From positions 1-13,863 of the forward strand of contig JBHLPL010000011.1 in assembly GCA_048939465.1 (NCBI GenBank): a stretch of 13,863 nucleotides of DNA. Reading direction: 5' to 3'. The stretch comes from Promethearchaeota archaeon (GTDB taxonomy: Archaea > Asgardarchaeota > Odinarchaeia > Odinarchaeales > JBHLKK01). A program made the position numbers and the translations under genes. Below are positions 3-12,074 of this stretch, one piece after another. Below the pieces are notes generated by a model, which worked only from the letters and a program-made list of their open reading frames with translations, was not told where the DNA came from and did not search any database. The first letter of the stretch is position 1, and each line of letters starts with the position of its first letter.

Positions 3-1301
3 ATGGTTCATAGGGGACAGAAGATATTTCCCACTGAGCAGGAACTTACTTTTGCAAAGCTGAATAGCATAGGAGTTAAAAGAACCGTGGAAGAACTCAC
101 ATTGATTGAGACTTTGAAAACCCCGCCGAAGCCTGGGCAGGAAGTTCGAGAAGCACTAACGGAAGATCTTAACGAATTCTTTGGTATCAAGGAGCATATG
201 CTCCATATAGGACACCTGCAGCATTATGAAGATATCCCAGTTTATCTGGATCCAGAAACCCTCGTAGCAATGCATCTGGGCGTTCTGGGAGCAACAGGAT
301 CTGGAAAGTCCTACTTCGCGAAAGTCCTTGTTGAAGAACTGACGGGTCAGAAGCCACCTATTCCATTGGTCATATTCGACCCTCATGGAGAATACGGAGA
401 ATTGGAAAACATGATGGACACTCGAATTCTTGAACCAGATTTTCTTGAAGGCAAAAGATCATGGTCTAATACGTCCCCTTTTGCGGTGAAGTCCATGCTG
501 AAGGGTCTTATGAATACGACTCAATTTGGTGTTCTCGAACAGGCATTAACAAGAATGCAACTAGATGAGAAATGGCCACCAGAAGAAACCGATAGCATTG
601 TGGAATATATTCAGAATGTGCCCGGAAGAAAGGGAACCACGATCTCCACCGTAGCTGATATTCTACGTCGAGACAAAAGACTGAGAAATCTCGATTCTGG
701 AGAACCGATAGACCCCGATGAAGTAGCAGTAGTGGGAAAGGCCACTGTTATAGATTTCAGTGGTGGGGTGCCACTGGAAAAACAACAGAGACTTGTGGGA
801 GAAATCTCCGACCTACTGTTTAGTGCAGGTCTTCTAAGAAAAGAAGCTTTCTCCGTAGATCTATTGGTTGAAGAGGCTCACCGGTACTGCCCTGAAAGAG
901 GTTTTGCTATAGGGAGAAATTCTGGACTATCTGCAGATGCCTTAATGACGATAGCGACCCAGGGACGGAAGTTTGGCGTCGGGATGACGGTTGTTACACA
1001 AAGGCCTGCCATGGTCTCTAAGGCAATCTTGAGCCAATGCAACACACTACTCACATTCAGATTGATGAGTGTTGCAGACATCGATCAAGTCAAGGGGGTG
1101 ATCGGAAACATTCCACTTCTGGATAGGATTTCTTACTTGGCTGTAGGTGAGGCGATAATTCTAGGAGTTGGCTTGCCTGTTCCTTTCCCGATAATATCCA
1201 GGATAAGAATAAGAAAGCTCAAGCCCACCAAGTTGGAAGTCAAATTGAAAGAAAGGATAAAAAGGATGCAAAGAAGACAGAGGAAGAAGCCTACTATGTA
1301 G
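3..1301 (+). CDS. herA: HerA/FtsK-superfamily ATPase (DUF87/HerA-like helicase), probably 5'-truncated by the window edge
   Basis: Walker A GATGSGKS, FDPHGEY motif, Walker B LLVEEAH, TQGRKFG arginine-finger region and TQRPA motif. KTPPKPGQEV resembles the end of a HAS barrel, with only about 40 aa before it, so the true start is probably upstream. Confidence 0.85.
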   Translation: MVHRGQKIFPTEQELTFAKLNSIGVKRTVEELTLIETLKTPPKPGQEVREALTEDLNEFFGIKEHMLHIGHLQHYEDIPVYLDPETLVAMHLGVLGATGSGKSYFAKVLVEELTGQKPPIPLVIFDPHGEYGELENMMDTRILEPDFLEGKRSWSNTSPFAVKSMLKGLMNTTQFGVLEQALTRMQLDEKWPPEETDSIVEYIQNVPGRKGTTISTVADILRRDKRLRNLDSGEPIDPDEVAVVGKATVIDFSGGVPLEKQQRLVGEISDLLFSAGLLRKEAFSVDLLVEEAHRYCPERGFAIGRNSGLSADALMTIATQGRKFGVGMTVVTQRPAMVSKAILSQCNTLLTFRLMSVADIDQVKGVIGNIPLLDRISYLAVGEAIILGVGLPVPFPIISRIRIRKLKPTKLEVKLKERIKRMQRRQRKKPTM

Positions 1302-1353
1302 AGGCAAATGCATCAATTAGCTGATTAATCCTGTTGGTTCTGGATGGAGCGCA

Positions 1354-2298
1354 ATGACTAAAACTAGAGTAGTGTTCTCAACTGATGTACACGGGAGTGA
1401 GATGTTTTGGATGAAATGGCTACGGTCTGGAGAGTACTATAACGCAGATATAATCATCATGTCCGGAGATCTGACGGGAAAGGCAATAGTACCAATAATT
1501 GAACAGAATGGGAAGTTCTCGTGTGAGTACCTTGGCCACAAACACATCATAAAAGAAGAGAAGAAGCTCCAGGAGATCATTAATGATATCAGGCTGAAAG
1601 GACTCTATCCTTACGTTTGCACTCTCGCAGAGGCAAGAGAGTTGCAGAGAGAAGAAAAAAAGCTTGAGCAATTATTCAGAAATCTTATGGTGGAGTGTAT
1701 TGAAAAATGGCTGGGTTACGTCGATCAAATTGTGGATAAGAGAATAAGGGTTTTGGTCAATCCGGGCAATGATGACATCTTCGAGATTGATGAAATCATT
1801 AAGGAATCTGATCGGACGATTTATCCCTTGAATCGCGTAGTTCAGCTTGACGATAAACATGAAATGATAAGCTGCGAATGGGTTAATCCTACCCCTTGGG
1901 ATTCTCCGCGCGAGTGTTCAGAGAAGGAGCTCAAGAAGAAACTCGAAAGGGAATTCTGTAGAATTGAAGATTATGAGAATTTAGTCTGCAATTTTCATGC
2001 TCCGCCTTTTGACACTAATCTGGATGTTGCACCCATGCTGGACAAAAGACTTGAACAGAAGACTATGTTGGGGACTCCTCTGACTGACCACGTCGGTAGC
2101 AAAGCTGTGAAGGAGATTATACTGGAAAAGCACCCCTTGCTCAGCCTACACGGCCACATTCACGAATCCCCAGGAATGCAGAAACTGGGAAGAACAATCT
2201 GCTTAAATCCTGGTTCCAGATATATTTCGGGAGTTCTCTCGGCTTATGTGATTGACTTCACTCGAGAAAAGATAAATCATTGGTTTATTAGTGAGTAG
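1354..2298 (+). CDS. Icc-related (calcineurin-like) metallophosphoesterase
   Basis: Full metal-ligand motif set: TDVHGS, GDLTG, PGNDD, NFHAPP, LHGHIHES. GGAG lies just upstream of the ATG. Confidence 0.9.
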   Translation: MTKTRVVFSTDVHGSEMFWMKWLRSGEYYNADIIIMSGDLTGKAIVPIIEQNGKFSCEYLGHKHIIKEEKKLQEIINDIRLKGLYPYVCTLAEARELQREEKKLEQLFRNLMVECIEKWLGYVDQIVDKRIRVLVNPGNDDIFEIDEIIKESDRTIYPLNRVVQLDDKHEMISCEWVNPTPWDSPRECSEKELKKKLEREFCRIEDYENLVCNFHAPPFDTNLDVAPMLDKRLEQKTMLGTPLTDHVGSKAVKEIILEKHPLLSLHGHIHESPGMQKLGRTICLNPGSRYISGVLSAYVIDFTREKINHWFISE

Positions 2299-2652: not shown

Positions 2653-3504
2653 TTACTTTTTCTTCTTCTGGGATTCCTTTGATCGCTTCGCTTCTTCTCC
2701 GATTTTTTTCAGGCCATAGAATCCGAGCGGGGGAACTCCAGCCTCGGGCATGGTACTTGGGACTAGCATTATCGTGTTGGTACCAGGTTGTTGGCCGATC
2801 TCGTAAAGTATATTCATCCATCTTAGGGACAATGCCTTCACGTTCTTCTCGTATAGTTCTGCTGCATCAATCATCTTTTGGGCAGCCTGAAACTCGGCTG
2901 TTGCGAGCGTCACTCTTGCAAGCCTCTCTCTTTCAGCTTGGGCTTGCTTGGACATGGCATCTTGGAGTGCAGCAGGAATTACAACATCTTTGACTTCCAC
3001 TGCTGTAACTTTTATTCCCCAAGCTTCTGTCTTCTCGTCGATTATTTCGCGTAGGTGTGTTCCTACCCTTTCTCTTTCAGCCAGGAGCTCGTTAAGCTCT
3101 ATTTTTCCTATGACCTCTCGCAGTGTTGTTTGTGCGGCCCACTGGGTTGCTGTCAAGTAGTTTTCTACATTTAGTATGCATTTTTCAACGCTTACTGGTT
3201 TACAGTACATTATTCCGTCTACGTTTACAGGGACGTTGTCCATGCTCAGTGTCTGTTCTGTTCTAAAAGAGATGGTCCTTATTCTTGTTGATATGGTCTC
3301 TGGCACTTTCTCTATTAATGGTATGACGTACGTTATTCCGGGTCCCCTTACCCCCACAAAACGGCCGAGTCTCAGAACCGGTATGCGTTCCCATTCTTTA
3401 ATTATGCGTATGCCGCTTAGTAAAACCGACGCTACAACTATTATCACTACTGATACGATTATCCAGAATATTAATACTTCATCCACTCCATCTCTCCCCC
3501 ACAT
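2653..3504 (-). CDS. SPFH/band-7 stomatin-like (slipin) membrane protein
   Basis: N-terminal TM helix, EWERIPVLRLGRF, AAQTTLREVIGKIEL, WGIKVTAVEVKDV, AMSKQAQAERERLA coiled coil. Exact start uncertain (GTG at codon 7 is possible). Confidence 0.95.
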   Translation of the reverse strand: MWGRDGVDEVLIFWIIVSVVIIVVASVLLSGIRIIKEWERIPVLRLGRFVGVRGPGITYVIPLIEKVPETISTRIRTISFRTEQTLSMDNVPVNVDGIMYCKPVSVEKCILNVENYLTATQWAAQTTLREVIGKIELNELLAERERVGTHLREIIDEKTEAWGIKVTAVEVKDVVIPAALQDAMSKQAQAERERLARVTLATAEFQAAQKMIDAAELYEKNVKALSLRWMNILYEIGQQPGTNTIMLVPSTMPEAGVPPLGFYGLKKIGEEAKRSKESQKKKK

Positions 3505-3525
3505 ACAAATGCTGAATGAACGAAT

Positions 3526-4254
3526 TTAAGCTTTTTCACCCGAAGCCCTCACAATGAGAACTAAACCCTCTTTATCGACAACCTCCACGTGTTCTCCTTT
3601 CATAATTGATTCTTCTTCAGCCCTTGCACGCCAGTATTCACCCAAGACCCTGATTTCACCTTGAGGATACAGATCTGTCATAGCAATCCCTTTAGCTTTG
3701 ACGAGAGCCTCCCCTCCGGTTCTAACTTTGAGTAATCTGGTTTTGGCGAGTTTAAAGACCAGGAACTCAAAAAAGACAGTGGATATTACAGCCATAATAA
3801 AAAGAATTTCTTGAATTTGTGTTGCGACGTGTTGATAAAGCATCCATTGAGGAGAAGAAAAAAGAAACAAGGTTCCCAAGATTATGCATATTCCGCCGCT
3901 AATAGCCAAAATGCCGATACTTGTTTTTAATTCAGCAACTAAGAGTGTAACGCCTAGAACAAATAATAAGACTGCGGAGGGCGGTATCCCGGTGACTCCG
4001 AAGGAGATTAAGGCTATGAAAAGACATGTAGTGCCCGCAATTTCGGCGAACCACCCTGGGGCTTTAATACCTACAAAAAGAGCATAAATACCAACAATAA
4101 GGAGTAGAGAACTCACTATGGGGTTGAAAAGAAATTCAAGAAAACGGTCAATCAAAGGTCCATCCAGAGACAGCGGACTCGGAGGAGAAGCAAGTACCTG
4201 CTTCTGTATTAAAGACAGGAGTATGGCTGTAAAGCATATTGCTGTCAGTGTCAT
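3526..4254 (-). CDS. nfeD: NfeD-family membrane protein (TM domain plus C-terminal OB fold) lacking the ClpP-like protease domain
   Basis: NP(IV)SSLLLIVGIY..PG membrane motif, about 5 TM helices, C-terminal GGEALV..GIAMTDLYPQGEIRVLGEYWRAR OB fold. Lies directly upstream of the SPFH gene. ATG at 4254 is preceded by GGAGGAG. Confidence 0.88.
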   Translation of the reverse strand: MTLTAICFTAILLSLIQKQVLASPPSPLSLDGPLIDRFLEFLFNPIVSSLLLIVGIYALFVGIKAPGWFAEIAGTTCLFIALISFGVTGIPPSAVLLFVLGVTLLVAELKTSIGILAISGGICIILGTLFLFSSPQWMLYQHVATQIQEILFIMAVISTVFFEFLVFKLAKTRLLKVRTGGEALVKAKGIAMTDLYPQGEIRVLGEYWRARAEEESIMKGEHVEVVDKEGLVLIVRASGEKA

Positions 4255-4590
4255 CTCTCCTCCACAGCCTTCATTCATCTCTCCATTAATCCGATTATCT
4301 GTTCCCTATAAGAAACTTGTGTAGAAATCGGTGAATTCTAAGAGCGGAGTTGTTATTGTCTCTTCTGAAACCTGCTTTGACTTCTTAGTGAGTAGATTGA
4401 ATCTAAAAGGCTGGAGAGGATCTTGTAAGCCTAAGTCACTGAATTATACCTCCTATGACATATTTCACAATAAGTATAAATGTGCATCTTCTATATTCTT
4501 GTGAAGGGAAAAACATAGAAGACCTCCGATTCTTGATATCCTTGAGTCTAATTAGCTTACTTACTGTTAAACAAAGCAAGGTGATTATTC

Positions 4591-4806
4591 TTGCCTTACC
4601 GAGTGGAAACAGCTGATATCCCTATGTGGAAATATCCGAAACATCCCAAAAAGATCAAAGCACTAATACGTAAACGGTTAAGCTACGTGAAGAAGAAGCA
4701 AATGCGGTATAAACCTAAGAAATGGAAGCTGAATACACACAGAAGGTTAGACCACGTGAGGAAAGAACACAGGTATCACAAATACGGAAGGAGGAAGCTG
4801 AAGTAG
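4591..4806 (+). CDS. Small, very basic protein (71 aa); C-terminal two-thirds weakly resemble ribosomal protein eL39
   Basis: TTG start with GGTGA SD at 4580-4584. 17 K + 10 R of 71 aa. Ends RRKLK. The ORF looks real; the eL39 assignment is tentative. Confidence 0.6.
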   Translation: MPYRVETADIPMWKYPKHPKKIKALIRKRLSYVKKKQMRYKPKKWKLNTHRRLDHVRKEHRYHKYGRRKLK

Positions 4807-5008
4807 ACTAACTGTTCGAGACCAAGCCAAGTTCGTATTGCTTCCGCTCAAAGAAAGAGATCAATGTTGCTTTCTTGCTCTCAGAACATCTACCCACACA
4901 GAAAGATTTTAATTATTGACATTCTTATGTACGCTTTAACTTCTTAATGAGCTTCAGCTCGATGAAGCGAGCACCAGTCAAATGAAAAACCTCCGATAGA
5001 TATATGAG

Positions 5009-5836
5009 CTAGCCAAGATTCAGCAGAGATTCAATTCTAGATTTTGCCTGTTTTAGCGTTAAGGGATAGGGTTGAGGGAGGTCTAGTTCGACAAACAGTT
5101 GAGTCATAATAGTTGGTCTTAGACCGTGTTTTTTTAGATGTTCAAGATCAGTCAGCACAGCCTCGATTGTCCCCTCTTTTCGTATCTTTCCTCTGTCAAG
5201 AACGTAGCACCTGTCAGCTAATTCTCCTATGAACTCTATGCTATGGGTGGCAATAATCAAGGTCTTACCTTGCTTCTTTAGGTACAAAAGCAAATTCAAT
5301 AATGACTCCACGCCTTGCGGGTCGAGGTTCAGTGTGGGTTCATCAAAAACAAGAATCTCAGGATCCATAGAAAGCACAGACGCTATCGATAGCTTTTTCT
5401 TTTCTCCGAAGCTTAAATTGTAGGTTATGCGTTCATTATATCCTTCAAGACCCACATTTCTTAGAGCCTTATTTACCCTTTGCATAACCTCTTCTGGTTG
5501 AAAACCCATGTTTAGTGGTCCGTAAGCCACTTCCTCCTCAACTGTATTCTTAAATATCTGGTCATTAGGGTCCTGAAATACGAAGCCTACTTTTTGACGG
5601 ACTAGTAGGCGATCCTTTGGCTGGAGAGTGTTCAGATTGTCAACTATTACTTCTCCCTTCTGCGGGATAAGGATGGCATCGAGGTGTAGAAGGAATGTGG
5701 ACTTTCCAGCCCCGTTGGGTCCTATCAAACCAACGCATTCGCCAGGGTAAACCTTGAAGTCTACTTTAGTTACGCCACAGCCTGTGCCGGGATATTTGAA
5801 AGTCACGTTTTTAGCTACAATTATGGGCCTTTGCAT
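5009..5836 (-). CDS. cbiO: ECF transporter ATPase (CbiO/NikO)
   Basis: Walker A GPNGAGKST, Q-loop VFQDPNDQIF, signature LSFGEKKK, Walker B VFDEPT, H-loop IATH. GGTGA SD upstream. Confidence 0.95.
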   Translation of the reverse strand: MQRPIIVAKNVTFKYPGTGCGVTKVDFKVYPGECVGLIGPNGAGKSTFLLHLDAILIPQKGEVIVDNLNTLQPKDRLLVRQKVGFVFQDPNDQIFKNTVEEEVAYGPLNMGFQPEEVMQRVNKALRNVGLEGYNERITYNLSFGEKKKLSIASVLSMDPEILVFDEPTLNLDPQGVESLLNLLLYLKKQGKTLIIATHSIEFIGELADRCYVLDRGKIRKEGTIEAVLTDLEHLKKHGLRPTIMTQLFVELDLPQPYPLTLKQAKSRIESLLNLG

Positions 5837-5850
5837 TTATCATCACCGCG

Positions 5851-6702
5851 TTAGATTAACATTAGACTATTCAGATAGGGGACTATAGATGGGAACACAA
5901 TCCGTGTGTCAACTAACAGCAATAGTATCAAACCCCCACTAAAGATTACAAAATACGCCAAATCTTTAGGTGTTATTCTGAGAGTAGTTAGTGATCTGAA
6001 TTTTCCGTTGAAGCCTCTGGCTAGCATGGCATTATATACTCTTTCTGCTCTTTTGTAACTCCGTCTTAATATGTTAGTAACAATCGTTCCAACTGACTTC
6101 ATTCTTTGCAATAAGTTCATTTTATTAACGGTTCTCGAATCCCGAGCTCTAGATACTTTCAGAGCCTCATCTGCAATTACAAATATGTAACGTAGCGTTA
6201 AATCGAACAATAACGTGAAGGTCTTAGGAAAATGAAGCCTGTCGAAAGCATTAGATATTTTATCAAAACTTGTGGTTAATATGAGCAGGTTGGCGAGGCT
6301 TACTGTAATCCAGACTCTCAAAATGAATTTTAATGCAGTGTACAGTCCTTCTCGGGTTACAGTTATCGTCAATCCGTCTAGACTCCAAGAAGCGATAGGA
6401 GTCCCCGGAGTTATGAACGGTAATGGGATGGCTATTATGATCGCAAATAGGGTTACGAAGAATAGGGTGCGAAAGAAGAATTCCTTAATAGGGACGCGAG
6501 CTGTGATGGCAATTGCAAAAACAAATGAGAATATTAAGAGAAATATGATGATGTTCGAAACCAGAATAGTGCATATGATTCCTGTCAGAGTTGAAAATAT
6601 CTTTATTCGCGGGTCAATCTTGTGAATTAGGCTATTTCTACGGCTGGTCTCCTCTAGAATTAGGCTTTCTCGGATAAACTTCAAAAGTTTGGAAAAGACC
6701 AT
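5851..6702 (-). CDS. cbiQ: ECF transporter T component (CbiQ/NikQ)
   Basis: IHKIDPRIK start motif, several TM helices, LRYIFVI..E, ARDSR and AMLARGFNG conserved Arg motifs. Operon position matches. Confidence 0.93.
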   Translation of the reverse strand: MVFSKLLKFIRESLILEETSRRNSLIHKIDPRIKIFSTLTGIICTILVSNIIIFLLIFSFVFAIAITARVPIKEFFFRTLFFVTLFAIIIAIPLPFITPGTPIASWSLDGLTITVTREGLYTALKFILRVWITVSLANLLILTTSFDKISNAFDRLHFPKTFTLLFDLTLRYIFVIADEALKVSRARDSRTVNKMNLLQRMKSVGTIVTNILRRSYKRAERVYNAMLARGFNGKFRSLTTLRITPKDLAYFVIFSGGLILLLLVDTRIVFPSIVPYLNSLMLI

Positions 6703-6737
6703 CAGAAACTACTCCCGGAAGGGAAAGCGAATAGACT

Positions 6738-7040
6738 TCATCTATTCCTCTTTAGCTTTGTATAAGCGAATACGATTCCACCGGATAATACCCCGACTAT
6801 TGCCATTCCAATTAACCCAGAGATCAATGTTCCAGTCCACTCATTTCCCACGTTAATGAAGTAATCCGGAATAGCCCCCTCCCACAGTTGTTCTGATTCT
6901 CCGATACCCAGGTTCTCAGCCACTCTTTCCAGCCCGTCTGGAAACGCTGATGTCAAAGGGATTAGAATTGCTAATAGCACAATGGTGGCTGCTATGGCCA
7001 TTTTCGCCCATCTCGGGAATGTTGATTCTTCCTTCGTCAT
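6738..7040 (-). CDS. PDGLE-domain accessory membrane subunit (NikN/CbiN-like)
   Basis: Two TM helices flanking SAFPDGLERVAENLG and a PDY motif. Start overlaps the upstream stop (ATGA, 7037-7040). Confidence 0.9.
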   Translation of the reverse strand: MTKEESTFPRWAKMAIAATIVLLAILIPLTSAFPDGLERVAENLGIGESEQLWEGAIPDYFINVGNEWTGTLISGLIGMAIVGVLSGGIVFAYTKLKRNR

Positions 7041-7741
7041 TGCTTGGACACCTCATTACTATTCACTTCAACCACCGATGATTGCTTTACTACTATGTTG
7101 AAGTGTTCAACCTCTGGGAGCAAGTCGGGCTGAGTTTCCATCATTGTTCCCACAACCACAACTGAGATTACGCCCTCTCCGAATCCTATTAGGATATGCC
7201 AAAATAGCATTGCGGGGACGGTCACTTCCACCCCGTACGGGAAAATGCTTGATATACCGAGTTCGATACCGCATATTGCAGACGCAATCATAACTGAAAT
7301 CCATGCTCCTGCAAAGACACCGCTCATTATTCCTAATTTGCTCTTAGCTAGTTTTCGAACGAAGTAGTAAACTGCGAAACCCACAAACACCGTCATTATA
7401 CCCATGTTAAACGAATTGGCACCCAGGGCAGTTAGGCCGCCGTCTCCAAATATCACTCCCTGAATCACCAATATGATAGTCATGCCGACTATGGCAGAGA
7501 AGGGCCCAAGGAAAACAGATAGTAATGTCCCCCCCAAAAGATGTCCACTTGTCCCTCCTATGATGGGGAAGTTGAGCATCTGTGCCGCAAACACTCCTGC
7601 AGTTAAGACAGCCATCAGTGGAACTGTTTTGGGGGTCATTGTCTTATTAGATTTATAGAACGATATTACCCAGAATGCTATTGAGACTGCATACAGAGTA
7701 GCACTTAGTGCTAAGTCCAGAAATCCATCTGGTATGTGCAT
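7037..7741 (-). CDS. nikM: Ni/Co ECF substrate-binding component (NikM/CbiM family; MHIPDG N-terminus suggests nickel)
   Basis: N-terminal MHIPDGFL, plus FAAQMLNFPI.GGTSGHLLGG, GDGGLTALGAN and HILIGFGEG motifs. AGGTGA SD upstream. Metal specificity is inferred from the motif. Confidence 0.9.
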   Translation of the reverse strand: MHIPDGFLDLALSATLYAVSIAFWVISFYKSNKTMTPKTVPLMAVLTAGVFAAQMLNFPIIGGTSGHLLGGTLLSVFLGPFSAIVGMTIILVIQGVIFGDGGLTALGANSFNMGIMTVFVGFAVYYFVRKLAKSKLGIMSGVFAGAWISVMIASAICGIELGISSIFPYGVEVTVPAMLFWHILIGFGEGVISVVVVGTMMETQPDLLPEVEHFNIVVKQSSVVEVNSNEVSKQ

Positions 7742-8020: not shown

Positions 8021-10366
8021 ATGAAAAAAGGAATTTCAGCTGCATTGTTATTGATTCTCACCTTTTCCTGTTCGATTGCGCTGTCCTTTTCTAACACGAT
8101 CCAGACCCAGAGTGGTACTCTGCCTGATTTCAGCGGACGCGGAGGTCCTATTAACATTGCAGAATACGCTGTGGGAGATTTTGGTGCGCAAAATATATCC
8201 GCGACGACTTCATGGTCTGCCATGCCAGACACAGTGATAACCCCGGGCTATAATGCCGTCAAAATTACTCTTACTTTCTCCACAGGCTATGATGTAAGGA
8301 ACTGGACTGTCAATGAGAACTTTACCATTCCCTCCCCCGCCAACTGGTCAACGTGTGAACTAAACAATGAGGTGGGTCAAGATGTGGTCAATTTCACCAT
8401 GACTTACGAAGGTACCTATGATGATTGTGTTGAAGTCAGTGGAAAAGGGGGAGGACAGGGTGAGCCAGATGCGATAGGAGACTACGGAGGTTGGAGACAG
8501 ATCGTCGACATCACGAGTGCAGATATTGCTGCAGCTGAGATCATTCTCAACTACAGTCGCGACTATCAAAGCCAGAATCCTAACAATGCTCGGTTATTTG
8601 TGGATGTTAATGGGCAGAGGCTTGAAATAGCCCGATTTGATGATCCTAACGATTCACCTACTCCTCTATGGCATATTTTTGAGGCTGATCTGGATGCAGA
8701 GCAGTTAAATGAAAGCTTACCGGGACTACTGAACGTATCTTTAGGAGTCGAATACAGAGGCGGGAAATTAGCTCAACAAGTAACAGCCTACTATAGTTAC
8801 GTGTCACTGGTGATAACTGTGCCTGCAGTGAGCTCACAGTATGATGTGAGAATTAGAGATGCTGCCCAACCTACGGAAAACACTTCCATTCCTGAGAGCG
8901 GTATCGTTACCCTGGAGGGAAACTGGGTTGATCAGATTGACCTGGAAATCTGGTCTAATTCATCTGTTTCTGTTGGTTTTACTACGAGTGTCGACGCTGT
9001 TTCCAATAAAACCGTCATCTTCGATTTCCAAACCGTACCCGATAACAACGTAAACTGGAGTGGAGTATTCGAAGCAATTCATCCGTATTATCCCTATGAC
9101 TATAAACACTTTAATATCTCAGTACCCTTGGATTGGAACATTTCCAGTGTTTTGGATCCGATACTGAAAGAGCAATTGGGCAAGAATGCCTCTATCTTCA
9201 CCTTCCCCAGTCAGAAAATACTATTTGTAGATGCTGAGCATGCTGGCAGGGATTTGGGATTGACCGAGGCTTTGTTCGGAGACTGGCAGATATTTGCTGA
9301 CTCGCCTAATTACGCGTTGGATTGCTTCACTCAAGCTCAGTCGGACGCAGGATGGGCTAACACATCCACGATCCATCTAAACGAAATCCTTCGAACTACT
9401 CTTGTCATAAATTCCAGCGTCCTGGCCTTAAACGCCGGACGAGCTTTTCTGACCATTTACGATCCAGACCTGACAGTTTTCGCTCAGCAGGCAATCATTC
9501 CCAATGCATCGGGAATTATCGATTTTGATGACATTTCATTTGACCTCACCATCTCCAAAGCAGGAAACTACACGATAGATCTGGGCTGGGCGGGAAACGA
9601 TGAGGCAGGGAACATACGAAGCCAATTCCTGTTAATCCGTCCGGCAAGCTTTGAGCTGCTTCATCCTACGGACTCGGAGGCATCCGTCTATGTGGATTCG
9701 TCTTTCATGATTTCAGTACAATTGATGGACAACTACACGGCCGAAGCCGTTACAGATATGCAAGTATTTTGCCATTTCAGCTGGGAGAATGAAACCAGTT
9801 GGCATCTAATGGATATTTCAGGAGATCGTTATGTGACAACAGTTTATCTGCCTCCGGCTGTTCTACCCGGTCCTTATTCAATCCATCTTAGTACAGAGAA
9901 TCAGAGTGTAAGCTATGAGGCGAAAAGCATATCTCTTGAAATCGATATCAAAGCTTTGCCCACATCCGGGATACTGGGCCTAGATTTGATAACTCTTCCA
10001 GTAGCGATCGGGGCAGTAGCAGGAGCTGGAGGATACATTCTTTGGAATCAGTTTCTCAAATATCCGGCCATGGTACGCAAAATACGTAAACTGCGTGCCA
10101 AAATCCGAAAGGGAAAAACTGCTACCGAGCCCGTCGAAGTGAAGAGCCGTCAAGACTTGGCAAGAGATTTGCAGGTGGCACCTTGGAAGCCGACTGGAGA
10201 CATAACAGCCATGGAAACTGAAACAACTCCCGAAATGACCATAGAACAGACTGTACCTGCAGAAAAAACGCCGAAGAAGAATTATCAGAAGAAGAAAGGA
10301 AAGGGGACCGGAAGAAGTAAACGGAAGCAGCAAAAGAAACGAGGTAAAGGAACGAAGAGCAAATGA
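8021..10366 (+). CDS. Large secreted, C-terminally membrane-anchored cell-surface glycoprotein of unknown function (781 aa)
   Basis: N-terminal signal peptide (MKKGISAALLLILTFSCSIALS), acidic beta-rich ectodomain with about 23 N-x-S/T sequons by my count, a TM helix (LITLPVAIGAVAGAGGYILW) and a K/R-rich cytoplasmic tail. Confidence 0.85.
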   Translation: MKKGISAALLLILTFSCSIALSFSNTIQTQSGTLPDFSGRGGPINIAEYAVGDFGAQNISATTSWSAMPDTVITPGYNAVKITLTFSTGYDVRNWTVNENFTIPSPANWSTCELNNEVGQDVVNFTMTYEGTYDDCVEVSGKGGGQGEPDAIGDYGGWRQIVDITSADIAAAEIILNYSRDYQSQNPNNARLFVDVNGQRLEIARFDDPNDSPTPLWHIFEADLDAEQLNESLPGLLNVSLGVEYRGGKLAQQVTAYYSYVSLVITVPAVSSQYDVRIRDAAQPTENTSIPESGIVTLEGNWVDQIDLEIWSNSSVSVGFTTSVDAVSNKTVIFDFQTVPDNNVNWSGVFEAIHPYYPYDYKHFNISVPLDWNISSVLDPILKEQLGKNASIFTFPSQKILFVDAEHAGRDLGLTEALFGDWQIFADSPNYALDCFTQAQSDAGWANTSTIHLNEILRTTLVINSSVLALNAGRAFLTIYDPDLTVFAQQAIIPNASGIIDFDDISFDLTISKAGNYTIDLGWAGNDEAGNIRSQFLLIRPASFELLHPTDSEASVYVDSSFMISVQLMDNYTAEAVTDMQVFCHFSWENETSWHLMDISGDRYVTTVYLPPAVLPGPYSIHLSTENQSVSYEAKSISLEIDIKALPTSGILGLDLITLPVAIGAVAGAGGYILWNQFLKYPAMVRKIRKLRAKIRKGKTATEPVEVKSRQDLARDLQVAPWKPTGDITAMETETTPEMTIEQTVPAEKTPKKNYQKKKGKGTGRSKRKQQKKRGKGTKSK

Positions 10367-10709: not shown

Positions 10710-12074
10710 TTACTTCGATACCGTTCTTATTTCTCTCTCAATTATCTCTAGAGCGGAATCGATCAATTCGCGTTTAATTATAAGCGGAGGCACAATCCTG
10801 AGGGTTGATAGCCCTGCCATAATTAATAGTACACCTTTTTTCCAGGACCCCATCATGATAGTCTCAGCCTCATCGACAGCAGGTTCTCTGGATTTTTGAT
10901 CCTTGACAAGCTCGACACCTATCATTAATCCTTTTCCTCTAACATCACCGATTATCTCAAGATCCTCTTTCATTTCATTGAACCTTTCCATAACATAGTC
11001 TCCCTGCTTTACTGCGTTCTCCATCAGCCGTTCCTTTTCAATGATCTCGATGACTTTGTTGGCTACATGACAGGAAACGGGATTTCCTCCGAAGGTTGTT
11101 GCATGGGAGCCATATTCCCAATCCATTAACTCTGCCTTAGCTATCATAGCGCCGATAGGAAGGCCAGACGCAAGTGCTTTTGCGGTTGATATTACATCAG
11201 GGACAATTCCAAAATGCTCAATTGCAAACCATTTGCCTGTCTTACCTATCCCTGATTGAACCTCATCATCTACTAGGAGAATTCCATGCTTATCAGTCAG
11301 TTTCTTGAGTCTTTTGAAATACTCAGGGGGAGGAACAATATAACCGCCTTCTCCTTGAATAGGTTCAAATACTGTGGCCGCAACTTCCTCAGGCGGGATA
11401 AAAGTATCAAGGACCTCTTCCTCAATATAATCTATGCACCAGAAATTACACTCCGGATATTCTTGTTTGAAAGCGCACCTGTAGCAGTAAGGATATGGCA
11501 CATGCGTGACCCCAGGGATCAAAGGAAAGAAACCGCGACGGTGTTGTATTTTACTAGCTGTAAGGCTGAGCGAACCTAGGGTGCGGCCGTGGAATCCTCT
11601 TGTGAATGCGATCATACGTGGTTTTCTCGTATGATATCGGACACATTTAAACGCAGCTTCAACAGCTTCAGTTCCGCTGTTGCATAAAAAGACTTGTTTA
11701 TCAAAGCTTCCCGGTGTGATCCTTGTCAGGTTCTCAGCTAGGTCTACAAACGGCATGTAATAGAAATCGGTTGCGCTATAGTGAAGGAGTTTTTCAGATT
11801 GCTCTCTAATAGCACTCAGAATGTCCGGGTGGCCGTGTCCTACGGCCATGACAGCAACGCCGGCATTGAGGTCGATATATTTCTGGAAGACAGAAGCTGT
11901 ATGATTCTATCTATTCCCATCAACATCAACAACAATTGCCCCGCTAGCTTTTTCAGCAACCATTGGATACCATCGCTTGAAGCTTGCGCTAACGACCTTT
12001 TTATCACGCGCGACCAATCCTCTTGCTTTCGGCCCTGGCGGCGTTATATTGATTTTTGGATATTCTTCTCCCAT
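10710..12074 (-). CDS. Class-III PLP-dependent aminotransferase (GABA/(acetyl)ornithine AT family), intron-containing: complement(join(10710..11882,11913..12074)), 444 aa after splicing
   Basis: Exon 1 (54 aa) reads MGEEYPKINITPPGPKAR...GAIVVDVDGN. Exon 2 (390 aa) reads KYIDLNAGVAVMAVGHGHP...NSGTEAVEAA...FHGRT...EPIQGEGG...DEVQSGIGKTG...TAKALASG (PLP lysine)...HATTFGGNP...DVRGKGLMIGVE. The two exons are in the same frame and separated by exactly 10 codons including a TAG. Confidence 0.92.
11883..11912 (-). other. Putative 30-nt archaeal bulge-helix-bulge (BHB) intron in the aminotransferase mRNA
   Basis: RNA AGAUAGAAUCAUACAGCUUCUGUCUUCCAG. Central helix GGGA/UUCC (4 bp), 3-nt bulges AU|A and AG|A, intron stem GAUAGAA/UUCUGUC (7 bp), 9-nt loop. 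Cutting after the second base of each bulge gives GGG AAU|AAA UAU AUC GAC (GNKYID). Confidence 0.85.

What the first reader, a model, noticed from the sequence alone, without database searches (positions are those of the whole stretch)
11862..11940. BHB (tRNA-type) intron inside a metabolic protein-coding gene
Seen in sequence: two adjacent minus-strand ORFs are halves of one class-III aminotransferase, in the same frame and separated by 30 extra nt (11883-11912) that interrupt the conserved DVDGNxYID strand and contain a TAG. The RNA folds as a 4-bp helix GGGA(11918-11915)/UUCC(11888-11885) flanked on opposite strands by 3-nt bulges AUA and AGA. A 7-bp intron stem GAUAGAA/UUCUGUC and a 9-nt loop close it. 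The exons also pair with each other: GUUGAUGU(11930-11923)/AUAUCGAC(11878-11871) and GGCA-A-UUG(11940-11933)/CAAUGCC(11868-11862). Established: archaeal splicing endonuclease (EndA) cuts after the second nucleotide of each BHB bulge and RtcB ligates. BHB introns are typical of tRNA/rRNA; the well-known mRNA case is crenarchaeal cbf5. Applying that rule without adjustment removes exactly these 30 nt and gives D-G-N-K-Y-I-D-L and a normal-length 444-aa enzyme. Inference: this is a spliced mRNA intron in a metabolic gene, possibly in an Asgard-like lineage. The exon helix next to the 3' bulge is imperfect (one U-A pair, then a 3x2 internal loop), so it is a relaxed BHB.
Basis: partly seen in the sequence, partly recalled or inferred. 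Interest (0 to 1): 0.95.

Follow-up and report, generated by a model that had tools for sequence, protein, structure and literature searches.

The report
tRNA-type mini-intron in archaeal aminotransferase gene
A 30-base insert with a stop codon splits an aminotransferase gene of an uncultured Asgard archaeon; it has the shape and cut sites of a tRNA-type intron, so the mRNA is very probably spliced, which published work reports for only one archaeal protein-coding sequence (cbf5).

Summary
A class-III (acetylornithine-family) aminotransferase on the minus strand (12074..10710) is interrupted in frame by 30 nt (11912..11883) carrying a TAG.

- **Alignment:** 174 of 177 homologous loci lack exactly these 10 codons.
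- **Fold:** the RNA forms a relaxed bulge-helix-bulge (HBh'): a 4-bp helix, two 3-nt bulges and a 7-bp intron stem. The standard cut rule restores DVDGN|KYID and a 444-aa protein.
- **Conservation:** the insert sits at the same place, always with TAG, in four lineages of one genus. Both exons are under strong purifying selection (dN/dS about 0.05-0.11, dS 0.7-1.5). Stem changes keep pairing, and two pairs change on both sides.
- **DNA support:** assemblies from other studies carry the insert.
- **Machinery:** the genome encodes a two-subunit (alpha/beta) splicing endonuclease and RtcB.
- **Other genes:** a structure-blind homology test found six more mini-inserts (22-32 nt) with the same geometry, in aIF5B-, EF-2-, GatA- and SAHH-like genes.

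No RNA data could be found, so splicing is inferred, not shown.

The lineage is Asgard by the NCBI label of a congener. The scan has flagged this kind before, both in this genome and in others. I class it as a new member of a known kind, the cbf5-type mRNA intron.

The parts
11913..12074 (-). Exon 1 of the aminotransferase gene (ATG at 12074; 54 codons, ends ...VVDVDGN)
   Evidence: Translation. The NF004426 profile is matched from position 4. dN/dS is 0.09-0.11 among congeners.
11883..11912 (-). 30-nt BHB-type intron (phase 0). Cutting one nt further 3' on both sides (11911..11882) gives the same mRNA, because both cuts are followed by A.
   Evidence: Absent from 174 of 177 homologous loci, with the gap exactly here. 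Present in G000, G001, G002 and L258/L259. Present in DNA contigs of other studies.
11907..11909 (-). In-frame TAG inside the intron; it is part of the intron stem
   Evidence: Conserved in all four lineages. TAG ends 418 of 1254 long ORFs in this genome.
11915..11918 (-). Central 4-bp helix H, 5' strand (GGGA, exonic; Gly codon plus first base of the Asn codon)
   Evidence: Pairs with 11885-11888. Pair 57-86 of alignment A2 occurs as G-U, G-C and A-U.
11912..11914 (-). 5' bulge AUA; cut after the second nt (between 11913 and 11912)
   Evidence: Sequence. The cut rule comes from established knowledge of archaeal BHB processing.
11905..11911 (-). Intron stem h', 5' strand (GAUAGAA)
   Evidence: 7 bp with 11889-11895. 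All cells are paired in 5 sequences, with three one-sided changes.
11896..11904 (-). Intron loop (9 nt)
   Evidence: Most intron substitutions among congeners fall here.
11889..11895 (-). Intron stem h', 3' strand (UUCUGUC)
11885..11888 (-). Central helix H, 3' strand (UUCC, intronic)
11882..11884 (-). 3' bulge AGA; cut after the second nt (between 11883 and 11882)
   Evidence: Sequence. Reads AAA in the other three lineages.
11923..11930 (-). Exon-exon helix, exon 1 strand (GUUGAUGU)
   Evidence: 8 of 8 pairs in every intron-bearing gene, against 2-7 (mode 4) in 128 intron-less homologues. Pair 49-96 occurs as A-U, G-U and G-C.
11871..11878 (-). Exon-exon helix, exon 2 strand (AUAUCGAC)
10710..11882 (-). 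Exon 2 (390 codons plus stop, starts KYIDLNAG...)
   Evidence: Pfam Aminotran_3, E 6.6e-115. dN/dS 0.05-0.10.

Best explanation
The 30 nt at 11912..11883 are an archaeal bulge-helix-bulge intron in the pre-mRNA of an acetylornithine-family class-III aminotransferase.

Proposed mechanism. After transcription, exon 1 and exon 2 pair through an 8-bp helix. The 4-bp helix GGGA/UUCC with its two 3-nt bulges is presented on top of a 7-bp intron hairpin, giving a relaxed HBh' motif. The host's two-subunit (alpha-beta)2-type splicing endonuclease cuts after the second nucleotide of each bulge. RtcB joins the exons and probably circularises the 30-mer. The mRNA then encodes a normal 444-aa enzyme reading ...DVDGN-KYIDLNAG....

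What is shown: the insert, its fold, its conservation, selection on both exons, the presence of the enzymes, and sister introns in other genes of the genome.

What is inferred: the cleavage and ligation themselves.
For: 1. Exactness. 174 of 177 homologous loci lack precisely these 10 codons. Only the congeners have them, each with TAG.
2. Geometry. The canonical cut rule applied to the fold removes exactly 30 nt. By my calculation, 11 consecutive allowed pairs at fixed positions have a chance of about 0.375^11, or 2e-5.
3. Conservation. Four lineages at 81-89% protein identity keep length, position and TAG. 98% of structure cells pair, against 37-56% when partners are slid. Pairs 57-86 and 49-96 change on both sides.
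4. Not a pseudogene. Exon 1 dN/dS is about 0.09-0.11 and exon 2 about 0.05-0.10, with dS 0.7-1.5. There are no other stops or frameshifts in three genomes.
5. Constraint on the intron. It differs at 7-9 of 30 positions, less than synonymous sites (pS 0.45-0.65). Changes cluster in the loop.
6. Exon helix. It is complete (8/8) only in intron-bearing genes.
7. Machinery.
 - A catalytic EndA subunit (C90, 204 aa) has as best PDB matches the Aeropyrum pernix heterotetramer chain 3P1Z_B/3AJV_B.
 - A second paralogue (C139, 191 aa) has V in place of the catalytic His.
 - The first subunit carries an extra Lys-rich loop.
 - Two RtcB genes are present.
 - The literature states that Asgard archaea have (alpha-beta)2 EndA with the L1 insert, and that only (alpha-beta)2 and epsilon2 types cut relaxed motifs (PMC5829648).
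8. Sister introns. A deletion search blind to structure, run against a related complete genome, found six more inserts of 22-32 nt. Four show 4 of 4 central-helix pairs at the rule position and two show 3 of 4. They include aIF5B (GGI|TQHIGA), an EF-2-like gene, a GatA-like gene and a SAHH-like gene.
9. DNA support. Contigs from other studies carry the insert without gaps.
Against: - No RNA evidence exists: no junction read and no circular intron.
- The helix next to the 3' bulge is a single U-A pair followed by a 3x2 internal loop, and it is absent in G001.
- In G002 the fourth pair of the central helix is an A.G mismatch, and the MFE there is a different fold.
- In G000 and L258 the MFE prefers a register shifted by one nt, which would excise 32 nt and shift the frame.
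- Covariation rests on four related lineages and does not beat column shuffles (93 of 500).
- Part of the exon helix complementarity follows from the protein motif itself (V-D-I / Y-I-D codons).
Confidence: 0.85

Rival explanations
1. Inactivating insertion: the gene is a pseudogene, or only a truncated exon-2 protein is made from the ATG at 11849.
For: An in-frame TAG follows 55 codons. Gene callers in public records split the gene into a 55-aa ORF and a 379/388-aa ORF.
Against: Both exons are under strong purifying selection across lineages whose synonymous sites are near saturation. The 11 codons between the intron and the first ATG change almost only synonymously. There is no other lesion in three genomes. 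A class-III aminotransferase lacking about 75 N-terminal residues would lose conserved core; Pfam coverage starts at profile position 28 within exon 2 only. Essential genes of the same genome carry the same kind of insert.
Confidence: 0.04
2. The 30 nt are translated: TAG is read through (pyrrolysine or a suppressor), giving a 454-aa protein with a 10-residue insertion.
For: The insert is in frame, and TAG is the only stop in it.
Against: No PylS is present: the best hit scores 37.8 bits against a cut-off of 178. TAG terminates a third of long ORFs. The 10 'codons' diverge far more at the amino-acid level than the flanks (R*NHTASVFQ, R*NRLVSIVQ, R*DHSVSISQ), while their bases keep a stem. The insert splits a strand conserved in 174 homologues. 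Sister inserts of 22, 29, 31 and 32 nt cannot be read through.
Confidence: 0.03
3. The gap is skipped by the ribosome (programmed translational bypass, as in T4 gene 60) rather than removed from the RNA.
For: There is a stop right after the take-off region and a stable hairpin in the gap.
Against: No codon matching the take-off codon (AAU) sits at the landing site. The boundaries coincide with BHB cut positions, not with matched codons. The same geometry recurs at frame-shifting inserts in other genes. The exon-exon helix and central helix covary, which bypassing does not require.
Confidence: 0.03
4. Assembly or binning artefact: the insert is not in the organism's DNA.
For: The source is a 152-contig MAG.
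Against: The same insert occurs in contigs of runs from other studies with no indels. It also occurs in three further species-level genomes and in one raw-run assembly.
Confidence: 0.01

Closest known systems
BHB intron in the cbf5 pre-mRNA of Crenarchaeota (Watanabe et al. 2002; Yoshinari et al. 2006; Yokobori et al. 2009, PMC2738675)
   Same: A short intron inside an archaeal coding sequence. The exon-intron junctions fold as a bulge-helix-bulge. The host has a hetero-oligomeric EndA. The intron was gained within a limited clade.
   Different: The gene differs (a metabolic aminotransferase rather than an RNA-modification enzyme), and so does the lineage (Asgard by label, not Desulfurococcales or Sulfolobales). 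Here the TruB_N part of cbf5 is uninterrupted. Splicing here is not shown experimentally. The host genome holds several further mRNA introns.
BHB intron in the 5' UTR of HVO_1309 mRNA, Haloferax volcanii (PMC7714728)
   Same: An mRNA substrate of the tRNA splicing endonuclease.
   Different: That intron lies in the untranslated leader and does not interrupt the reading frame. Its host has the alpha'2-type enzyme.
Non-canonical (HBh') introns of archaeal pre-tRNAs (Marck and Grosjean 2003; PMC5829648)
   Same: The same motif class: a 4-bp helix, 3-nt bulges, a strong intron-side helix and a weak exon-side helix. The same enzymes are expected to act.
   Different: The host RNA is an mRNA. Exon pairing comes from coding sequence rather than from a tRNA stem.
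HAC1/XBP1 unconventional mRNA splicing in eukaryotes (Ire1 cleavage, RtcB or Trl1 ligation); from my own knowledge
   Same: Protein-enzyme cleavage of an mRNA at two stem-loop sites, followed by RtcB-type ligation, which changes the reading frame or product.
   Different: The endonuclease and motif differ. That system is a regulated stress response. No regulation is known here.

Membership tests
Archaeal BHB (EndA-spliced) intron | Two 3-nt bulges on opposite strands separated by a 4-bp helix, each bulge 3' of its helix strand | tested here: met
   GGGA/UUCC with bulges AUA and AGA. Kept in G001 and L258/L259. In G002 the fourth pair is A.G.
Archaeal BHB (EndA-spliced) intron | Cutting after the second bulge nucleotide on both sides yields the functional RNA | tested here: met
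   This removes 11912..11883 and gives DVDGN|KYID, matching the gap in 174 of 177 homologues.
Archaeal BHB (EndA-spliced) intron | Flanking helices h (exon side) and h' (intron side) of the strict hBHBh' form | tested here: inconclusive
   h' is 7 bp and fully conserved. h is one U-A pair, then a 3x2 loop, then 8 bp. This makes it a relaxed HBh' form, not the strict motif.
Archaeal BHB (EndA-spliced) intron | Host encodes a splicing endonuclease able to cut relaxed motifs, and an RtcB ligase | tested here: met
   Two EndA paralogues are present. One is catalytic-like with a Lys-rich extra loop; the other lacks the catalytic His. RtcB is present in two copies. Enzyme specificity is inferred from the literature.
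Archaeal BHB (EndA-spliced) intron | Structure maintained by compensatory change in relatives | tested here: inconclusive
   98% of cells pair, two pairs change on both sides and slid controls give 37-56%. There are only 4 lineages, and 93 of 500 shuffles do as well.
Archaeal BHB (EndA-spliced) intron | Excision and exon ligation seen in RNA | not testable with these tools
   No RNA run was listed for this sequence.
Class-III aminotransferase, acetylornithine aminotransferase family (NF004426) | Full-length match above the curated cut-off | tested here: met
   621.7 bits against 552, profile positions 4-440 of 441, even with the 10 extra residues. Pfam PF00202 E 6.6e-115.

The most novel reading that the evidence does not exclude
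In this Asgard genus, endonuclease/RtcB splicing of mRNAs is a routine and obligatory layer of gene expression. A dozen or more protein genes, including essential translation factors (aIF5B, EF-2), GatA, SAHH and this aminotransferase, would be interrupted by 20-35-nt BHB mini-introns. These introns have been gained lineage by lineage: a related complete genome lacks them at these sites but has one of its own elsewhere. That would make it a prokaryote with habitually split protein genes, in the archaeal group closest to eukaryotes.
Probability: 0.55. Interest if true: 0.85.

Novelty: new member of a known kind. Interest (0 to 1): 0.72.

Why it matters
The papers I could search say that cbf5 is the only archaeal coding sequence known to hold a BHB intron (PMC7714728, 2020). 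I found no later report of others.

A conserved and evidently functional intron in a metabolic enzyme gene, with sister introns in essential genes of the same genome, has three consequences:
1. The tRNA-splicing machinery serves mRNAs far more widely than textbooks state.
2. Standard gene callers mis-annotate such genes as fragments; public records split this one into a 55-aa ORF and a 379/388-aa ORF.
3. Asgard archaea offer a natural system for asking how protein genes tolerate, gain and perhaps exploit introns without a spliceosome or a nucleus.

Tried and rejected
- **RNA evidence.** No RNA holder was listed for the gene in either search.
- **Motif-only genome scans.** I scanned for BHB geometry plus ORF merging, with three controls: parallel pairing, wrong cut offsets and junction-peptide homology. 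Specificity was too low to give a census: 398 hits against about 360 in controls for introns up to 50 nt, and 15 against 9-18 after the homology filter. I replaced this with a homology-first search blind to structure.
- **Timed-out script.** One script hit the 300 s limit and gave nothing.
- **Metagenome and genome collections.** These returned only intron-less relatives at 66% identity or less. The window's own ORF was not on record.
- **Rfam.** No family matched in the window.
- **Multi-copy element.** The intron has no other copy in the genome, so I rejected a multi-copy mobile element.
- **Lineage.** I first read the lineage as Bathyarchaeia, from the named best hits. I dropped this, where the nearest proteins carry Asgard labels.
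- **Covariation statistics.** The column-shuffle control was not significant with 3 or with 5 sequences.

Full report
**1. The observation**

The window is the first 13,863 bases of a 28,005-base contig (C4). It belongs to a 1.96-Mb, 152-contig MAG that is 91% complete with 43% G+C.

On the minus strand an ORF starts at ATG 12074 and stops at TAG 11909..11907 after ...GAIVVDVDGNR. The same frame continues as NHTASVFQ-KYIDLNAG... down to the stop at 10710.

Exon 2 (390 aa) matches Pfam Aminotran_3 from profile position 28 (E 6.6e-115). The 54-aa exon 1 is too short to score alone. The read-through protein matches NCBIfam NF004426, 'acetyl ornithine aminotransferase family protein', over profile positions 4-440 of 441. 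It scores 621.7 bits against a cut-off of 552.

**2. The insert is exactly what homologues lack**

tblastn of the read-through protein against 180 fetched loci gave 177 alignments across the site. These loci came from related genomes, GTDB species genomes and JGI metagenomes.

- 173 of the 177 have a 10-residue gap placed as DVDGN----------xYID, and one has a 9-residue gap.
- Only the window and the two congeners G001 and G002 have the extra codons, each with a stop.

**3. Fold and cut sites**

RNAfold of 11945..11855 gives -30.6 kcal/mol, z = -3.28, and none of 200 shuffles folds as well.

The bulge AUA follows the 5' strand of that helix and AGA follows the 3' strand. GAUAGAA/UUCUGUC closes a 9-nt loop.

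On each strand the bulge lies 3' of the 4-bp helix, as in pre-tRNA BHB motifs. Cutting after the second bulge base removes 11912..11883. Because A follows both cuts, a cut one base later on both sides gives the same mRNA.

The exon-side helix next to the 3' bulge is one U-A pair, then a 3x2 loop, then the 8-bp helix GUUGAUGU/AUAUCGAC. This is a relaxed HBh' motif.

There is one caveat. The MFE for the window sequence and for L258 uses a register shifted by one nt (UGGG/UCCA with an 8-bp stem). That register would excise 32 nt and break the frame. The frame-restoring register is the MFE in G001. G002 folds differently at the MFE, but its centroid keeps the exon helix and the intron stem.

**4. 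Relatives**

The closest proteins in the large protein collection are all 379-388-aa truncated ORFs at 83-89% identity. The next hits, at 67% identity, are full length at 443-450 aa.

Their DNA shows a 55-aa ORF followed by the truncated ORF. The 30-nt insert sits at the same codon in four lineages: G000, G002 (= L260), G001 (= L261) and L258/L259.

On the 5-sequence alignment A2:
- 98% of structure cells pair, against 37-56% when the 3' partners are slid.
- The intron stem is 100% paired, with three one-sided changes.
- Central-helix pair 57-86 occurs as G-U, G-C and A-U. Its exon side is the third base of a Gly codon.
- Exon-helix pair 49-96 occurs as A-U, G-U and G-C. Its two sides are the first base of a Val/Ile codon and the synonymous third base of a Tyr codon.
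- Column shuffles are not exceeded (93 of 500), so with four related lineages the covariation is suggestive, not proof.

The exon helix is 8 of 8 pairs in every intron-bearing gene. In 128 intron-less homologues it is 2-7 of 8, with a mode of 4.

**5. Not a pseudogene and not an artefact**

Nei-Gojobori estimates among G000, G001 and G002 are:

| Region | dN | dS |
|---|---|---|
| Exon 1 | 0.07-0.12 | 0.68-1.34 |
| Exon 2 | 0.07-0.10 | 0.73-1.50 |

The intron differs at 7-9 of 30 sites, which is fewer than synonymous sites do, and mostly in the loop.

The 11 codons between the intron and the first ATG of exon 2 change almost only synonymously. That stretch is therefore translated, although no ATG, GTG or TTG precedes it after the TAG.

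Contigs of runs from other studies (X3 mangrove, X7) cover the insert with no indel, and no intron-less DNA form was seen. X1 and X2 may be the source data.

**6. Rivals**

- **TAG read-through.** No PylS is present. TAG ends 418 of 1254 long ORFs. The inserted 'peptide' is poorly conserved while its bases keep a stem.
- **Ribosomal bypass.** There is no matched landing codon.
- **Mobile element.** There is no second copy in the genome.

**7. Machinery**

PF01974 finds two EndA paralogues.

- The C90 protein (204 aa) aligns colinearly with the catalytic chain of the Aeropyrum pernix heterotetramer (3P1Z_B/3AJV_B, E 1e-44).
- The C139 protein (191 aa) is divergent and weakly matches the structural chains.
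- In their pairwise alignment, C139 has V where C90 has the His of the DHS motif. C90 has an extra Lys-rich loop, KPVGIRKPKIPEF.
- RtcB is present twice.

Published analysis states that Asgard archaea have (alpha-beta)2 EndA with the L1 insert. It also states that only (alpha-beta)2 and epsilon2 enzymes cut relaxed motifs (PMC5829648).

ARAGORN finds introns in 11 of the 15 tRNA genes it can recognise.

**8. The intron is not alone**

I fetched the complete 1,418,269-bp genome G003, which is in the same order. I ran its ORFs against G000 with tblastn.

At sites where alignments broke, I searched for the deletion that best restores the alignment, without using structure. I then read off the BHB rule positions.

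| Site in G000 | Insert length | Central-helix pairs at the rule position | Note |
|---|---|---|---|
| C113:448-471 | 24 nt | 4 of 4 | |
| C118:3265-3291 | 27 nt | 4 of 4 | INCHTH hydrolase |
| C24:7268-7289 | 22 nt | 4 of 4 | SAHH-like, ...GHPS\|EVMDMSF |
| C69:18515-18543 | 29 nt | 4 of 4 | aIF5B, GGI\|TQHIGA |
| C68:10915-10945 | 31 nt | 3 of 4 | EF-2-like |
| C77:44560-44591 | 32 nt | 3 of 4 | GatA-like, 10-bp intron stem |

The chance of 4 of 4 pairs at a random position is about 2% by my calculation. Lengths that are not multiples of three rule out read-through for these inserts.

G003 lacks all of these inserts. It has one clear case of its own at 535634-535667: 34 nt, GTAC/GTAC, in a gene 87% identical to a G000 ORF.

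Earlier AI notes on this genome list ahcY, gatA, pyrG, citG, eS30 and elf1 introns. I re-found ahcY and gatA independently and did not check the others. The scan has also flagged such introns in other genomes.

**9. Lineage**

The G002 protein is labelled 'Promethearchaeota archaeon' at NCBI (GCA_048937925.1). That phylum sits in the kingdom Promethearchaeati, the Asgard group. The nearest intron-less homologues are labelled Asgardarchaeia, Baldrarchaeia and Bathyarchaeia.

From memory only, the size of G003 fits the closed Odinarchaeum LCB_4 chromosome. I did not verify this.

**10. Literature and verdict**

The searchable literature gives cbf5 as the only BHB intron in an archaeal coding sequence, plus one 5'-UTR case in Haloferax (PMC7714728, PMC2738675).

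The finding is real. It is best explained as an EndA/RtcB-spliced mRNA intron (confidence 0.85). It is a new member of the cbf5 kind, in a new gene and a new lineage, within an apparently intron-rich genome. RNA-level proof is missing.

Noticed in passing
G000 contigs outside the window: C113:448-471, C118:3265-3291, C24:7268-7289, C69:18515-18543, C68:10915-10945, C77:44560-44591: Six further 22-32-nt inserts interrupt protein genes: an unnamed gene, an INCHTH hydrolase, and SAHH-like, aIF5B, EF-2-like and GatA-like genes. They were found by homology alone and show BHB geometry at the rule positions.
   Followed up: partly
G003:C1:535634-535667 (locus L127, about 15634-15667): The related complete 1.418-Mb genome has its own 34-nt BHB-like insert (GTAC/GTAC, bulges TCA and AAA). 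It lies in a gene 87% identical to an uninterrupted G000 ORF on C38. Introns therefore differ between families of the order.
   Followed up: partly
G000:C31:2961-5708 (loci L254, L256): One of the two RtcB genes is a 973-aa open frame. The RtcB profile is split in it (positions 1-57 and 45-426) by about 1.4 kb, which is the size of an intein.
   Followed up: no
window 8021-10366 (+): A 781-aa protein with an N-terminal signal-like segment, many N-x-S/T sites, a C-terminal membrane span and a Lys-rich tail. It has no Pfam match.
   Followed up: no
window 3-2298 (+) and 5009-7741 (-): A HerA-type ATPase (DUF87) lies next to a weak metallophosphoesterase match. A CbiM / (100-aa ORF) / CbiQ / ABC-ATPase cobalt or ECF-type transporter cluster is also present. 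A Band-7/NfeD pair sits at 2653-4278.
   Followed up: no
window 4279-5008: About 730 bases hold no ORF of 80 aa or more on either strand and no Rfam match. I did not examine this stretch further. In this genome such gaps could hide another interrupted gene.
   Followed up: no
L258, L259, L260, L261 (public records of congeners): Gene callers annotate the aminotransferase as a 55-aa ORF plus a 379- or 388-aa ORF. The 388-aa version starts at a non-standard ATC. The public proteins are therefore N-terminally truncated.
   Followed up: yes
G000 whole genome: ARAGORN recognises only 15 tRNA genes, 11 of them with introns and some with odd calls (a 'tRNA-Stop' and a 'tRNA-SeC' with introns). Many tRNA genes are probably too interrupted to be found.
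   Followed up: no
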